34,612 bases of DNA from a virus (taxonomy: Duplodnaviria > Caudoviricetes): positions 1 to 34,612 of the IMG/VR virus record IMGVR_UViG_3300047477_000152. One strand, written 5' to 3'. A model generated the notes under the pieces. The model ran no database searches. It saw nothing but the letters and a program-made list of their open reading frames with translations, and was not told the DNA's origin. The position numbers and the translations under genes are program-made. Below are positions 15,686-28,241 of the stretch, in pieces (the first letter of the stretch is position 1; every line of letters begins with the position of its first letter).

Positions 15686-16534
15686 ATGAAGAATAAAGGC
15701 TTCACCCTCGTAGAAATGGCGGTGGTATTGGTGATCATGAGCGCGGTCTCCGGCCTGCTGCTGTCCGGACTCAACGTGTTCATGACGCACACTCGAAGCG
15801 CCACCACACACGCCAGGCAGGCGGCTATCAAGAGTGCGTTGATAGCCTACCTCCGGGACAACAAACACCTGCCTTGTCCTGCGACCAAAGCTGACGGCGC
15901 GGCAGGCGACTGCACATCTCTGTCCGGTACGCTCCCATATCGCGAGCTTTCCATCCCCCAAGACGAAGCGCTTGACGCGTGGGGGAATCACTTCACCTTC
16001 GTTGTCACTAAAGACTGGACAGTCGCCGACACGTTCATCAAAGCACCGGATAAAACCAAGTTGGTTCAACTGGGCGACGAGCGCGCGGCAGTCGTCTTGA
16101 TCTCCCATGGTGACAATGGGGACGGGGCGATAAACGCACAGTACCAGCCCAACACGGCCCCGCCCGAGAGTAAGGTTGAAGAAACAGCCAACGCTGAGGG
16201 TTGCTCCCCGCGCTGTTACAGAGAGTCGGTCGCCGATGGCTTTGACGACAGGCTTGCCGTCTTCAGCCCGCAAGAGCTGCTTGAGCCCTTGCTTCAGCAA
16301 GGCTGGACGACAAAGAGCGATGCAGCGTGCGAGAGCTTTATCAACTCGATCATCCTCTCCAGCAAAGCAGGGCCGGCGCTCGGCAGCGTGCAGCTGACAA
16401 TTGACAAGGGAGCGCTTGTTGTCGGATCAACTGAGGAATGCGTGCTTCTGCCGGTGACGCCCCCTAAAGACTGCTCTGCCCCAATGGAGAGGGTGTGCTT
16501 GGTCTTGACTAAAAACGGAGTGTTCGCCAAATGA
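15686..16534 (+). CDS. Prepilin/pseudopilin-like protein (class III signal peptide)
   Basis: MKNKG|FTLVEMAVVLVIMSAV: G-1, F+1, E+5 and a hydrophobic helix. The LPCPA, GTLPY..L, DAWGN.F and LISHG.NG.G motifs match T2SS/MSHA-type minor pilins. Confidence 0.9.
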   Translation: MKNKGFTLVEMAVVLVIMSAVSGLLLSGLNVFMTHTRSATTHARQAAIKSALIAYLRDNKHLPCPATKADGAAGDCTSLSGTLPYRELSIPQDEALDAWGNHFTFVVTKDWTVADTFIKAPDKTKLVQLGDERAAVVLISHGDNGDGAINAQYQPNTAPPESKVEETANAEGCSPRCYRESVADGFDDRLAVFSPQELLEPLLQQGWTTKSDAACESFINSIILSSKAGPALGSVQLTIDKGALVVGSTEECVLLPVTPPKDCSAPMERVCLVLTKNGVFAK

Positions 16535-16731
16535 CCTTCGCTCAACGTGTAAAAGTCGCAGCAATGATCACTCCGGCGTTGATGCTGACGTTCTTCGGCC
16601 TGTTCGTCTGCTCACCGCTACCTAAGTCAGTGAACCTGTATCTTGGTTTCGCCCTCAGCCTGCTTGCCGCGTACAGCTGCGCACACTGCATTGTGATCGC
16701 AGCCTGCATGTGGCGTGATGCGAACAAATGA
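16531..16731 (+). CDS. Small two-TM membrane protein
   Basis: 66 aa, two hydrophobic segments; ATGA overlaps with both prepilin genes. Confidence 0.7.
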   Translation: MTFAQRVKVAAMITPALMLTFFGLFVCSPLPKSVNLYLGFALSLLAAYSCAHCIVIAACMWRDANK

Positions 16732-17294
16732 ATCAGCGGGGATTCACCCTCGTTGAGCTGGCGTTCGTAATTTTGGTCATCGGCGCACTCACAGCGGGCG
16801 TGCTTGTTGGTGGCAAACACCTCGTGCGTCAAGCGGATAAGAAAGCCTTTGCTGCCAAAGTTCAGAGCTTGGTGGCGGCGACATCGGAATTCCGAGATCG
16901 TTATCGCATGTACCCAGGCGACTTCATTGTGAACGAGACCGTGCCTGAAATCCCAAGGCTCAGTAAGCGCTGCCTGTCTGTCGGCCGAGGTAACGGCAAT
17001 GGGCTTATTGACGCGAACGAATCCACGTGTGCGAGGGAGCAACTCCTTGGCGCCGGGGTGCTTGAGGCCGCTGCGTTCGAGTTCAAGTTCCCGCAAGTCT
17101 CGCTCAGTTTTCTCTCCGTTCAAACAGCTGGTGTGCCCGTTGGCACGCTAAAAGCGAACGTGAGGAACGTGGTGGTGTTCCAGAACCTGCCGTGCTACCT
17201 GACCCAGGCTGTGCCGAGCGGGGCGGTGATCACAGGGGTATGTTCGGTTGATGACGAAGACGTGGAAGTCCAGTTTGCAGTAGCCGCACAGTGA
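16728..17294 (+). CDS. Prepilin/pseudopilin-like protein (class III signal peptide)
   Basis: MNQRG|FTLVELAFVILVIGALTAGVLVG, then F.DRY..YPGD and GNGNG.ID motifs; four Cys. Confidence 0.9.
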   Translation: MNQRGFTLVELAFVILVIGALTAGVLVGGKHLVRQADKKAFAAKVQSLVAATSEFRDRYRMYPGDFIVNETVPEIPRLSKRCLSVGRGNGNGLIDANESTCAREQLLGAGVLEAAAFEFKFPQVSLSFLSVQTAGVPVGTLKANVRNVVVFQNLPCYLTQAVPSGAVITGVCSVDDEDVEVQFAVAAQ

Positions 17295-17385
17295 TGGGCT
17301 CTTCGCACGGCGGAGCCGTAATATATTGGACAAACTCGATTATATTGGACTGACAGAGGGTGTCAGATGCCCCGAAAGCCGCATG

Positions 17386-17408
17386 AATAAAGGCTCCCGC
17401 AGGAGCCT
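17386..17408 (-). terminator. Putative intrinsic terminator downstream of the tRNA half
   Basis: Minus strand AGGCTCC-TGCG-GGAGCCT followed by TTATT. Confidence 0.55.
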
Positions 17409-17423
17409 GAATTTTCGGTAATG

Positions 17424-17464
17424 GGATTAACAGTCCGGCGCTCTACCGACTGAGCTATCGAGGA
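17424..17464 (-). tRNA. 5' half of tRNA-Asn(GTT); truncated, probable att core
   Basis: Minus strand TCCTCGATAGCTCAGTCGGTAGAGCGCCGGACTGTTAATCC gives the acceptor 5' strand, D arm (GCTC/GAGC) and anticodon loop CTGTTAA. It then diverges, with no T arm (GTTCGA) or 3' acceptor strand. Confidence 0.9.
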
Positions 17465-17487
17465 AAATCAACAACGTAGCTTCAACT

Positions 17488-17564
17488 AGCTGTCCAATAT
17501 ATCGTCTCTCTGACGGTATCTGAGTGACGTTTTGACGCCCTCTCTGAAAATATATTGGACAGCT
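17488..17564. repeat. 15-bp perfect inverted repeat AGCTGTCCAATATAT/ATATATTGGACAGCT
   Basis: Arms at 17488-17502 and 17550-17564, extendable with 2 mismatches to 17481/17571. Confidence 0.9.
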
Positions 17565-17583
17565 CGTTGCAGCGAGGAAGCGA

Positions 17584-17612
17584 ATTCTAGGTGGTGATCT
17601 CCGGGCTGTCAA
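17584..17612 (-). promoter_or_regulatory. Near-consensus sigma70 promoter pointing at the tRNA half
   Basis: Minus strand TTGACA (17612-17607), 17-bp spacer, TAGAAT (17589-17584). Upstream sequence is AT-rich. Confidence 0.85.
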
Positions 17613-17625
17613 CCTTGGTCTTTAC

Positions 17626-17656
17626 AAAAAGAAAGCCCGGACGAATCCGGGCTTTT
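17626..17656 (-). terminator. Intrinsic terminator ending the leftward early operon (possibly bidirectional)
   Basis: Minus strand AAAGCCCGGA-TTCG-TCCGGGCTTT-CTTTTT, 20 bp after the stop at 17677. Confidence 0.9.
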
Positions 17657-17676: not shown

Positions 17677-17934
17677 TCAGCCGTACTTGCGCATGTCTCT
17701 CGCTGACTCCTGCTTGTCCGCTTTGGCGTTGGCCATATCCTCCAGGTGACTTGCGAGCAACTTCTCGAACGCTCGGTCCTCCAGAGCTTTGACGACTTTC
17801 GATTCAAGCAGCTCGATGACGGACTCACCTTTGTGCTGCACGTCTTCCAGCTCGAAGTCCTCAATGTCGTGGAACGTGCCCAGGACAAGGAACTCAACAC
17901 CTCCAAGCGTGATGCTTACTTCACTCGTATTCAT
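17677..17934 (-). CDS. Hypothetical phage protein
   Basis: Last gene of the coupled minus-strand run before the terminator. Confidence 0.7.
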   Translation of the reverse strand: MNTSEVSITLGGVEFLVLGTFHDIEDFELEDVQHKGESVIELLESKVVKALEDRAFEKLLASHLEDMANAKADKQESARDMRKYG

Positions 17935-18275
17935 GGCTTGTCCTTAACTAGAACCTTGAAACCAAGGTAAGTCACTCTCGTAAGACTGTCGTACGAGAAA
18001 GGTTGGGAGCACGAATTAGCCTTCATCTTCAAATAGCAAAGATCCGCTTCGTCAAGCATTAACGCGTCAGGCTCACGCTGCATATGTTGAACCCCTAGAC
18101 TCAAAACCTTCATCATGTCGTAGTACGGGTCATCCGCTGGCGAGAAGGTTCCCGCATGCAATATCTGGATCTTTTTACCGTCCGTTTTACAAACTGTGTA
18201 AGCCGTCTGCTCGTAACCCGGTCTCCCCAGGTCAATACCCAGCATGTACTCAGGTAAGTTGTCACTCGTATTCAT
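17931..18275 (-). CDS. Hypothetical protein (more AT-rich; possible insertion)
   Basis: ORF from ATG 18275 (or GTG 18284), flanked by a 14-bp direct repeat. Confidence 0.6.
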   Translation of the reverse strand: MNTSDNLPEYMLGIDLGRPGYEQTAYTVCKTDGKKIQILHAGTFSPADDPYYDMMKVLSLGVQHMQREPDALMLDEADLCYLKMKANSCSQPFSYDSLTRVTYLGFKVLVKDKP

Positions 18276-20001: not shown

Positions 20002-20699
20002 GCCGCTATCTCCAATTTGAGTTGCTTCCACGCGTCCGTTTCGCGGCGTTTAGCTTTACGTGCCTGAACGATCAAGCTCGCCGCCCAGCTGCGCATCTGT
20101 TCGGTGATGTAGCTACCGCTGTTGCTCTCGAAGCCCCAGCATGAGTCTTCACCCAGTTCTTCTCCGTTCTCGTCATGCAGCGTGACGATCAGGCCAACGT
20201 ACCACCAGTTGTCATTGCACCAGTCGCGCAGGAACTCATAGGTGTTGCGCATGGCACGCATAGCCTGCTCGTGCTTCGTCCCGGTCTTGTACGGTGGGGC
20301 GTCCCAGCCTTCTTTGATGGCGATGGGCAAGGTTGCCTTCCAGTCGTAATAGCGATGGCTGAAGTGCTCACCACACAGCTCCCAACCGTACTGCTCTTCG
20401 TCTAACGAACCGTGAATCCAGTCAGTCACTTCACCCACACCGTCGCAGTCTTCCCAAGGCGGCTCGTGGTGGCTGTCATACTGAATCTTGAAATTGATTT
20501 TCCAGCCGCGAGGTAGCTCGTGTTCTTCCTCACCCTCATAGGCTTCACCGTGATTGAGCGGGGTGATGTTCTGCTTGAATGAACCTTCGCCGTACTTCGC
20601 TTCGAACTTTGCTGAACGCATAGCTTGAATGGCGGGGTTGTTTTCAGCACGTTCCTTTTTATAGAAACGGAGCACGCGTTGCTTGTAGGTTTCCTTCAT
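19998..20699 (-). CDS. Conserved-looking hypothetical phage protein (W/Y/D/E-rich)
   Basis: Start MKETY at 20699; PWE.CDG.G.V.DW, YYD, W..D.W.YVG..VT, DSCWGFES motifs. Confidence 0.75.
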   Translation of the reverse strand: MKETYKQRVLRFYKKERAENNPAIQAMRSAKFEAKYGEGSFKQNITPLNHGEAYEGEEEHELPRGWKINFKIQYDSHHEPPWEDCDGVGEVTDWIHGSLDEEQYGWELCGEHFSHRYYDWKATLPIAIKEGWDAPPYKTGTKHEQAMRAMRNTYEFLRDWCNDNWWYVGLIVTLHDENGEELGEDSCWGFESNSGSYITEQMRSWAASLIVQARKAKRRETDAWKQLKLEIAA

Positions 20700-26844: not shown

Positions 26845-27047
26845 TCGTCGTTCCCCTCAGGTTCGCCGTGATCCTCGGGGCGGCAGACTGCGCTGACGGT
26901 GTACGCGCCGTCCCCGCTCAGGACGCGGTCTTCGAGATTCGGGCTGACCTCAAGCCACCTGAAGTAGCCCTGGCACGTATCCAGGGCGATGTCCAGAATG
27001 TCGCCGAAGAAGTCTTCGGTCATGTTGAATTTCAGGGTGATTGTCAT
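26841..27047 (-). CDS. Small acidic hypothetical protein
   Basis: ATG overlaps the integrase stop. Confidence 0.55.
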   Translation of the reverse strand: MTITLKFNMTEDFFGDILDIALDTCQGYFRWLEVSPNLEDRVLSGDGAYTVSAVCRPEDHGEPEGNDE

Positions 27048-28024
27048 TTTCTCTTCTTTCCAGGCTCGACCAGGTCCGTCTTACGAGCCCTGATATAAGC
27101 CTCGGTCATAGTGATACTCTTGTGGCCGAGAAGTTTCTGTGCGGAAGCCGCGTCGTCCATGTCCGTGGCAACCATGCCGCGAAGGTCATGCTCCGTGAAC
27201 CGGTCGTTTCCAGCTGATACGAACGTCGCCATCAGTCGCCTCCAGATCGAGCCGAAACCCTGTGACGTGTACTGAGTGCCCGAGCGAGTTGGAAATAGCA
27301 GCGGCGATGATTTCGGCAAGCGACTTAAAATCTCCTGCAGTTCTGGAGTCAGCCGGATGCGGATCCGCTTTCCGGTAGAGTTCTTGGTTTTTTGAGGACA
27401 TAGGTGTATTCCTTGGTTGTCAATATCAACCCACTTGAGCGCGAGCATGTCTTGCTGGCGGGCACCAATCAGTGCTTTGAGATCCAGATAGGTCTGGAGC
27501 CACGCGGGGCACAGGCTCTTGAACGTCGCCAGTTCTGTCGAGGTGACGTACCGAGTACGGGGCCTCTCTCGCGCACGAAGCCCTGGAACTGCGCAAGGGT
27601 TATCCGTGCGTAAGCCCCACCTGATTGCGTAATTGAAGATGTGGGAAAGGAGCGCAATCTCACGGTTGCCTCTTGTCTTCGCTTCGCGGGCATCACGATA
27701 CGCAGCGACGTGTACTGCGGTGACCTGTGTGACGTGCATCTCTCCAAACGCCGTGCGAAGAAAGCGTAGTTCTTGGCGATTGTCCTTCTGCGTGCGCTCG
27801 GCTTTTCCCGGCACAACTTCGAGAAGGTATCGGTCAAAAAGCTCAGCCATGATCTCAGTTTGTGTCGGTGCGATGACAAGAGTCGACCATTTCGCCATTG
27901 CTTTGGCATAGTCACTGTCTAGCCTTTCCCATTTACCAGTTGCTTTGTGAACGAAGTAGTACGCCCCGTTGCGGTGATATACCCGCTCAGGTAAGTCTTT
28001 TCGTTTTGTTCTTGCGCGTCCCAT
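27044..28024 (-). CDS. int: Tyrosine recombinase / phage integrase
   Basis: N-terminal arm-binding-like LPERVY...GAYYF. Catalytic residues R (GARQQD), K (QKTK), HDLR, LGH, Y (TEAYIR). Confidence 0.95.
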   Translation of the reverse strand: MGRARTKRKDLPERVYHRNGAYYFVHKATGKWERLDSDYAKAMAKWSTLVIAPTQTEIMAELFDRYLLEVVPGKAERTQKDNRQELRFLRTAFGEMHVTQVTAVHVAAYRDAREAKTRGNREIALLSHIFNYAIRWGLRTDNPCAVPGLRARERPRTRYVTSTELATFKSLCPAWLQTYLDLKALIGARQQDMLALKWVDIDNQGIHLCPQKTKNSTGKRIRIRLTPELQEILSRLPKSSPLLFPTRSGTQYTSQGFGSIWRRLMATFVSAGNDRFTEHDLRGMVATDMDDAASAQKLLGHKSITMTEAYIRARKTDLVEPGKKRK

Positions 28025-28241
28025 TTTGCATGCCTCGTTGAAGATCTTTCAGAGCGAATAGGTTCGGCTCAGATTTTGTCAGAGTCTTGGGCGAGCTAAT
28101 TAGCGCTGCGCGTAATACGCGCGGCCAGTCGTCTGCGCCAATAAGGAGAACGGGCACCCCGTATTCGCGCAATATCTTCAAGACAAGTGAGGGACGACGA
28201 TACCCCGTCAACTCGCAGAGTTCGTCTTTTGACAGAATCAT
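27987..28241 (-). CDS. xis: DUF4224-like excisionase / recombination directionality factor
   Basis: LS.DEL.ELTGY.RPS.....L...GVP.......PRV.R ... EPN..AL; overlaps the 5' end of int. Confidence 0.8.
   Translation of the reverse strand: MILSKDELCELTGYRRPSLVLKILREYGVPVLLIGADDWPRVLRAALISSPKTLTKSEPNLFALKDLQRGMQNGTRKNKTKRLT
28045..28096. promoter_or_regulatory. Tripartite operator-like motif, copy C, inside xis just upstream of int
   Basis: TCTTTCAGA-N11-CGGCTCAGA-N3-TGTCAGAG. 28075-28096 matches 31423-31444 at 19/22 positions. Confidence 0.55.

What the first reader, a model, noticed from the sequence alone, without database searches (positions are those of the whole stretch)
17386..17656. attP carries the 5' half of tRNA-Asn with its own promoter, so integration would put a host tRNA under phage control
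Seen on the minus strand, in order: terminator, TTGACA-17-TAGAAT, ~110-nt leader, 41 nt of tRNA-Asn(GTT) 5' half ending 3 nt past the anticodon loop, terminator-like hairpin. Established: most tRNA-targeting tyrosine integrases carry the 3' part of the tRNA in attP, so the host promoter is retained. Inference: crossover in the anticodon loop would leave host promoter + 5' half + phage terminator at one end, and phage promoter + complete tRNA-Asn (plus any downstream host genes) at the other. The prophage would then drive a possibly essential tRNA, which could penalise loss of that prophage end and allow translational tuning.
Basis: partly seen in the sequence, partly recalled or inferred. Interest (0 to 1): 0.8.

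Follow-up and report, generated by a model that had tools for sequence, protein, structure and literature searches.

The report
Front-half tRNA-Asn phage attachment site
This phage carries the front half of a bacterial asparagine tRNA gene behind a predicted promoter of its own as its likely chromosome docking site, and a related phage found inserted in a bacterial chromosome has the only intact copy at that site sitting behind phage DNA, a rare but already described mirror image of the usual arrangement.

Summary
Observation confirmed and extended. The 41-nt tRNA-Asn 5' half lies inside a full lambda-type attP: four copies of a 10-mer arm motif flank it (0.01 expected by chance), and an intact Int and Xis lie 9.6 kb away. 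The predicted topology is seen in a relative (Int 53%): host promoter + 5' half + phage P' arm at one end; phage promoter + arms + intact tRNA-Asn at the other. A bacterial genome keeps a 290-bp att-only relic whose promoter-like site precedes its only intact tRNA-Asn. A sister phage carries the tRNA-His 3' half in mirror orientation with matching core half-sites, which suggests how the flip arises. Most genomes of the likely host family show one tRNA-Asn (101 of 151). No lysogen of this exact phage was found and promoter activity is untested. 'Control' or 'tuning' is unsupported: the promoter looks like a plain copy of host tRNA promoters, and clean excision restores the host's. Known kind (MabA1 phages, PMC8092301; Zhao & Williams 2002). 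The scan found this arrangement before on other DNA (8 notes, one apparently on relative G003).

The parts
17622..17655 (-). Terminator-like hairpin and T-run ending the early-gene run; insulates the att promoter (inferred)
17584..17612 (-). Sigma-70-type promoter TTGACA-17-TAGAAT followed by a GC-rich discriminator-like stretch, like host tRNA-Asn promoters; start predicted near 17577
   Evidence: equivalent sites in G004 and G422
17551..17561 (-). Arm-type site P1 (TGTCCAATATA)
17506..17546 (-). Two CAGAGAG direct repeats (17546-17540, 17512-17506), candidate Xis sites; AGAG repeats sit between P1 and P2 in all five P arms aligned
   Evidence: assignment to Xis is inference
17491..17501 (+). 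Arm-type site P2, inverted relative to P1
17466..17478 (+). IHF-like site, one mismatch to a recalled consensus
   Evidence: consensus recalled, weak
17424..17464 (-). tRNA-Asn(GTT) nt 1-41; anticodon loop 17433-17427 is the predicted 7-bp strand-exchange overlap
   Evidence: crossover bounded between nt 4 (G004 allele difference) and nt 38 (end of identity in G422)
17386..17408 (-). Terminator-like hairpin that would stop the half-tRNA transcript in attP and at attL
   Evidence: hairpins at the same place in G004 attL and G422 by eye, not scored as terminators
17341..17351 (-). Arm-type site P'1
17322..17332 (-). Arm-type site P'2, 19 bp from P'1 as in all five P' arms measured
27044..28024 (-). 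Lambda-type tyrosine integrase, 326 aa, with R189, H279, R282, H301, Y310 and an N-terminal arm-binding region
27987..28241 (-). Excisionase overlapping the int start
   Evidence: three PHROG excisionase families, best E 3e-8

Best explanation
This stretch carries the first 41 bases of a host tRNA-Asn gene between four arm-type repeats and is likely the attachment site at which the phage integrase would insert the genome into that gene, rebuilding it from the front behind a predicted phage promoter that likely just replaces the host's. Steps: (1) shown: anatomy of attP, intact Int and Xis. (2) shown in a relative, inferred here: crossover within the shared 5' half, most likely in the anticodon loop, giving attL = host promoter + 5' half + hairpin + P' arm and attR = phage promoter + P arm + intact tRNA. 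(3) inferred: the phage promoter is a constitutive stable-RNA-type promoter; the 110-130 nt leader holding the P arm is removed by normal 5' processing. (4) inferred: because tRNA-Asn is often single-copy, the promoter is obligatory compensation for reading the target in the reverse direction. (5) inferred: the reverse reading arose because the reverse complement of the tRNA-His anticodon arm and the forward tRNA-Asn arm offer the same half-sites (CCGGA-N7-TCC), so one integrase clade can use either.
For: Arm motif 4 of 4 copies around the core, 0.01 expected. Arm geometry conserved in five elements with three different arm motifs: P1-P2 59-62 bp, loop to P'1 81-84 bp, P'1-P'2 19 bp, P2 to loop 66 or 87-90 bp. 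Int profile's best solved matches are lambda Int over positions 1-313. Complete phage G003 (Int 62%) has the Asn 5' half (43 nt) at the same genome position. Prophage G004: tyrB-like gene, host promoter, 5' half at 1031-1071, P' arms, virion gene; contig L291 overlaps it for 19,762 nt with 1 mismatch and continues into TTGACC-16-TACAAT, P1, P2 and an intact tRNA-Asn. The two copies differ at nt 4 (C at attL, T at attR); the empty site in the closest host relative L393 (tyrB 91%) has C and a near-identical promoter, so the intact gene's front is phage-derived. L017 begins with the same 50-nt P-arm flank before an intact tRNA with a different 3' half. G422 relic with TTGACT-17-TAGACT before its only intact copy. 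G002 (Int 55%) holds the His 3' half on the opposite strand and has no promoter there. 101 of 151 family genomes have one intact Asn match, 31 two, 2 three, 17 none.
Against: No integrated copy of this exact phage was found: the window and the identical record G005 both show the free form, and GTDB gave only two clade integrases, on short contigs. Int lies 9.6 kb from the site, so the pairing rests on conserved linkage and on relatives. Promoter activity is untested. The G003 promoter-like site scores 8 of 12 and is not called, though G003's int is truncated. The host of the window's phage is not identified; the 42-nt core is exact in 13 of 30 family loci but also occurs in records that were not assigned to that family. 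Many of the 151 genomes are metagenome bins in which copies can be lost or collapsed.
Confidence: 0.85

Rival explanations
1. Same integration, but the promoter is a regulated switch: Int, Xis or a phage repressor bound at the P arm turns the host's tRNA-Asn up or down and so tunes translation.
For: P1 lies 23 nt after the -10 box in the window and inside the -35/-10 spacer in G003 and G422, so Int binding could block it. The window's leader folds into a stable P1/P2 hairpin (z -5.25; G004 z -3.11). A dusA-integrating element gives lower expression than the native promoter (PMC8409611).
Against: No operator other than the arm sites was seen; promoters resemble host tRNA promoters; the hairpin follows trivially from inverted arm sites and is absent in G422 (z 0.32); Int is normally scarce in a lysogen (general knowledge); a sister phage does without the promoter by using a 3' half.
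Confidence: 0.12
2. The arrangement is kept because it protects the prophage end from deletion: losing the promoter kills a host with one tRNA-Asn.
For: G422 has lost the whole element except 290 bp that include the promoter, before its only intact tRNA-Asn.
Against: One case in 401 genomes; the relic shows the phage genes can be lost while the promoter stays, so it does not protect the phage; precise excision restores the host promoter; P' arms, which the tRNA does not need, were kept too.
Confidence: 0.1
3. The site is a real but disused attP; this phage no longer integrates.
For: Only free forms seen; relatives with lost or truncated int keep their att sites (G003, G006).
Against: Int is full length with all five catalytic residues checked and Xis is intact; four arm 10-mers are identical; promoter is 11 of 12.
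Confidence: 0.07
4. A decayed phage-encoded tRNA gene.
For: Related phages do carry their own tRNAs elsewhere (G003 tRNA-Thr).
Against: No 3' remnant; 100% identity to host genes up to a sharp end; arm sites; relatives have the same half and one is integrated through it.
Confidence: 0.01

Closest known systems
MabA1 prophages of Mycobacterium abscessus at attB-5 (PMC8092301, passages read)
   Same: [quoted passage not shown]
   Different: tRNA-Met in an actinobacterium; here tRNA-Asn, a betaproteobacterial-type host, a lambda-type Int 9.6 kb from attP, and the promoter can be located against the arm sites.
Element with reversed target-gene orientation, Zhao & Williams 2002, J Bacteriol 184:859 (title seen in a reference list; cited as the less frequent 5' mode in PMC6563490; paper not held)
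   Same: Element carries the 5' part of a tRNA gene.
   Different: Recalled as one cryptic element; here a clade of virion-encoding phages with free and integrated forms and a sister in the usual orientation.
dusA-targeting IMEs and SXT at prfC (PMC8409611, passages read)
   Same: Integration in the 5' end with an element-supplied promoter, shown by experiment for dusA.
   Different: Protein-coding targets; different integrase families.
Lambda Int/Xis attP (PDB 5J0N, 1Z1G, 1Z1B)
   Same: Three-domain Int, Xis, arm sites on both sides of a 7-bp overlap.
   Different: Lambda attB is not in a tRNA gene and int adjoins attP (general knowledge); here two arm sites per side.
tRNA-dependent lysogeny of mycobacteriophages (as summarised in PMC12582341, passage read)
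   Same: The lysogen depends on phage DNA for a tRNA function.
   Different: There a separate complete phage tRNA replaces an inactivated host gene; here the host gene is rebuilt in place.

Membership tests
Lambda-type tyrosine integrase attP system | Catalytic R-H-R-H-Y residues in Int | tested here: met
   R189, H279, R282, H301, Y310 present and invariant in 51 aligned sequences
Lambda-type tyrosine integrase attP system | N-terminal arm-binding region | tested here: met
   Profile aligns to lambda Int from residue 1, E 4e-21
Lambda-type tyrosine integrase attP system | Arm-type repeats on both sides of the core | tested here: met
Lambda-type tyrosine integrase attP system | Excisionase | tested here: met
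   27987-28241
Lambda-type tyrosine integrase attP system | Int recombines this site | not testable with these tools
   needs an assay; supported by G004 junctions
5'-replacing (reversed) tRNA-integrating elements | attP holds only the 5' part of a host tRNA gene | tested here: met
5'-replacing (reversed) tRNA-integrating elements | Integrated form: displaced 5' fragment behind the host promoter, intact gene behind element DNA | tested here: met
   met in relative G004/L291 and in G422; no lysogen of the window's own phage found
5'-replacing (reversed) tRNA-integrating elements | Element-supplied promoter is active | not testable with these tools
   sequence match in 3 of 4 such elements scanned
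tRNA-dependent lysogeny (complementing phage tRNA) | Separate complete phage tRNA of the target type; host gene inactivated | tested here: not met
   No complete tRNA in the window (56% complete), no complete Asn tRNA inside G003 or G004; gene is intact at attR
Decayed phage tRNA gene | Remnant of the 3' half or a complete gene at this place in relatives | tested here: not met

The most novel reading that the evidence does not exclude
One integrase clade flips between a tRNA-His 3' site and a tRNA-Asn 5' site by swapping only the DNA between arm site P2 and the core plus a promoter built onto P1; in the Asn form Int binding gates the host's only asparagine tRNA, and the 290-bp att-only cassette in G422 is a gene-less mobile element that lives off helper Int/Xis while holding that essential promoter.
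Probability: 0.15. Interest if true: 0.7.

Novelty: new member of a known kind. Interest (0 to 1): 0.4.

Why it matters
It gives a well-resolved example of the rare 5'-replacing mode with free attP, both prophage junctions, an empty site and a minimal relic, and places the supplied promoter against the arm sites. The His-3'/Asn-5' sister pair with shared half-sites makes the question of how integrases change target and orientation directly testable with two short substrates. Prophage finders that expect a 3' fragment next to int would miss these ends (IMG/VR cut G004 250 nt short of the intact tRNA). It does not show phage control of translation.

Tried and rejected
Rfam scan of the window: nothing at the site. 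Phage collection: no relative over the att flanks, only tRNA matches; polymerase at most 37% to cultured phages. GTDB scan with the Int alignment: no clade prophage with its att end. Sequencing runs: 8 of 24 listed runs laid, all contigs; they break at the 41-nt core and cannot separate attP+attB from attL+attR; none of 4 RNA-library runs covered the leader, which says nothing about promoter activity. (401 genomes, 2 mismatches) also counted tRNA-Lys, so its counts were dropped and replaced; it included an unpublished genome (G036), on which no claim rests. Pattern for 5' halves in viral contigs gave 3 stretches: 2 halves already known and 1 complete tRNA (L428). The Int tree is the quick tree only, SH-aLRT, no clade test: G002 (His-3') groups with G004 (Asn-5') at 99, apart from the window and G003, so at least two switches or module swaps occurred and their direction is not settled; most outgroup integrases face a tRNA 3' end, often His. 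The best Int match in G422 is distant, has a stop and lies on another contig, so the relic's integrase was not found. Leader hairpin as a conserved RNA element: rejected. Papers read in passages without bearing: PMC9934374, PMC3203893, PMC9897764. Literature searches found no description of this phage group or of such a relic; Zhao & Williams 2002 was not held and no supplements were read, so listings of 5'-side islands in tables or subscription papers may exist.

Full report
Setting. The window is a 34.6-kb IMG/VR phage fragment, about 56% complete. Virion genes run on the plus strand to 15667, two pilin-like genes follow, and early genes (polymerase, xis, int, dCMP deaminase, ligase) run on the minus strand down to 17677. 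The finding lies where the two blocks meet. No cultured phage is close (polymerase at most 37%).

Observation. The 41 nt at 17464-17424 are identical to the start of complete tRNA-Asn(GTT) genes and there is no 3' half or complete tRNA in the window. The promoter and terminator matches alone are not much above shuffles. The decisive addition is a 10-mer found four times in the window, all around the half-gene: P1 17561-17551, P2 inverted 17491-17501, P'1 17351-17341, P'2 17332-17322 (0.01 expected). The integrase at 27044-28024 has its catalytic residues and aligns with lambda Int from the N-terminus, so it is a type that needs arm sites; an excisionase overlaps its start.

Relatives. A protein search gave about 54 integrases at 47-98% identity, one clade in the tree. 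The att region is visible in four distinct phages of the clade: the window (and the identical record G005), G003, G004 and G002. Three of four carry the Asn 5' half and one the His 3' half. G003 is a complete 69.7-kb phage with 43 nt of the Asn 5' half at the same position; its int has lost the N-terminus and xis. G004 is a prophage. Its left end reads: tyrB-like aminotransferase, host promoter, tRNA-Asn nt 1-41, hairpin, two arm sites nearly identical to the window's, virion gene. Metagenome contig L291 overlaps G004 for 19,762 nt with one mismatch and runs on past its right end: last phage gene, TTGACC-16-TACAAT, P1, inverted P2, a complete tRNA-Asn at 20013-20088, terminator. The two copies differ at nt 4; the empty site in the nearest host relative (L393, tyrB 91%) has the attL allele and almost the same promoter, so the front of the working gene comes from the phage. 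The resulting U4-G69 pair is common in natural genes of the family. Record L017 starts with the same 50-nt P-arm flank before a complete tRNA with a different 3' half, a second attR seen only in part.

A relic. Genome G422 has, downstream of tyrB and an insertion sequence: host promoter, 5' half whose identity stops at the end of the anticodon loop (nt 38), hairpin, P'1 and P'2, then TTGACT-17-TAGACT straddling P1, AGAG repeats, inverted P2 and the genome's only intact tRNA-Asn match; 290 bp in all, no genes. It was the only such case in 401 family genomes with a pattern that would miss halves ending like G003's. It bounds the crossover at or before nt 38.

The mirror sister. G002 (complete, Int 55%) has the same arm geometry and the same arm motif as G422, but between P2 and the core it holds the tRNA-His 3' half on the opposite strand and no promoter. 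Read in the Int direction, His gives CCGGA-ATCACAA-TCC and Asn gives CCGGA-CTGTTAA-TCC: the same half-sites around different 7-bp overlaps. I infer that this symmetry lets the clade change target and direction, and that the Asn direction forces the phage to bring the 5' half and a promoter. The direction of change is unsettled. Other related phages use other modules at the same genome position: G001 a tmRNA 3' end with an unrelated Int, G006 a His 3' half with no clade Int found.

Essentiality and downstream genes. The G004 host's aminotransferase has its best named matches in Rhodocyclaceae-type bacteria (79-83%). In 151 genomes of the family of the best-matching sampled genome, an exact intact-Asn pattern was found once in 101, twice in 31, three times in 2 and not in 17; the two closest host relatives have one each. 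tRNA-Asn(GTT) is the usual sole reader of Asn codons (general knowledge), so the rebuilt gene is probably essential in such hosts. Many genomes are bins, and the window's own host is not identified. Downstream, a terminator follows at once in L291; in 8 of 30 family loci a second Asn copy lies in tandem, which is the only host gene clearly placed to be co-driven.

Mechanism. Most likely Int crosses over in the anticodon loop and the phage promoter replaces the host's one for one. The phage promoters share the host tRNA promoters' look: a -10 box followed by a GC-rich stretch. Regulation is possible, since P1 lies just after the promoter (window, G004) or inside it (G003, G422), but nothing shows it; the leader hairpin is a by-product of inverted arms and is missing in G422. 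An anti-loss role is weak: clean excision restores the host promoter, and G422 shows the phage genes can go while the promoter stays.

Comparison. [quoted passage not shown] PMC6563490 (passages)' recombination considerably less frequent and cites Zhao & Williams 2002, which I could not read. PMC8409611 (passages) shows an element-supplied promoter at dusA and cites SXT at prfC. PMC12582341 (passage) describes tRNA-dependent lysogeny, a different solution. Seven searches found no account of this phage group or the relic; supplements were not read. Earlier notes of this scan report the same kind at other tRNAs and, in one note, apparently at G003 with the same integrated relative; I had reached these results before reading them and count them as no support.

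Verdict. Real, well supported, a new member of a known rare kind.

Noticed in passing
window 15686-16534 and 16728-17294 (+): Two proteins with type IV prepilin N-terminal methylation motifs (PF07963) beside attP, also present in relative G001 (36-38%); candidate lysogenic-conversion genes that interfere with pili and superinfection.
   Followed up: partly
window 17366-17339 (-): Second promoter-like site (CTGACA-16-TATAAT, 11 of 12) overlapping arm site P'1 and pointing antisense into the pilin-like gene; not called at the G004 attL.
   Followed up: partly
G422:C18 about 41,920-42,300 (L419 1473-1838): 290-bp gene-less attL+attR cassette in front of the genome's only intact tRNA-Asn; either a deletion relic or a minimal mobile element.
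   Followed up: partly
L291 20089-20790: A second small element with a displaced Asn 3' half follows the rebuilt tRNA, so the working gene may be made of two mobile elements' halves; L017 shows the same with a full prophage.
   Followed up: partly
L317 10140-10360 (also L318, L136): A distant integrase (37%) followed by promoter-like sites, repeats and an intact tRNA-Met in the same direction: probably an independent 5'-replacing attR; its sister L304 faces a Met 3' end.
   Followed up: no
G004 45204-46698: A permuted tmRNA call and several weak tRNA-like matches inside the prophage.
   Followed up: no
G003 58746-59881; G006; L130: int truncated or missing while the att site remains: repeated loss of integration in this phage group.
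   Followed up: partly
window 17920-18262: The ORF upstream of 17934 is skipped or replaced in strains from other runs: a variable slot next to attP.
   Followed up: no
L288 3740-4953: About 1.2 kb inserted between xis and int in one clade member.
   Followed up: no
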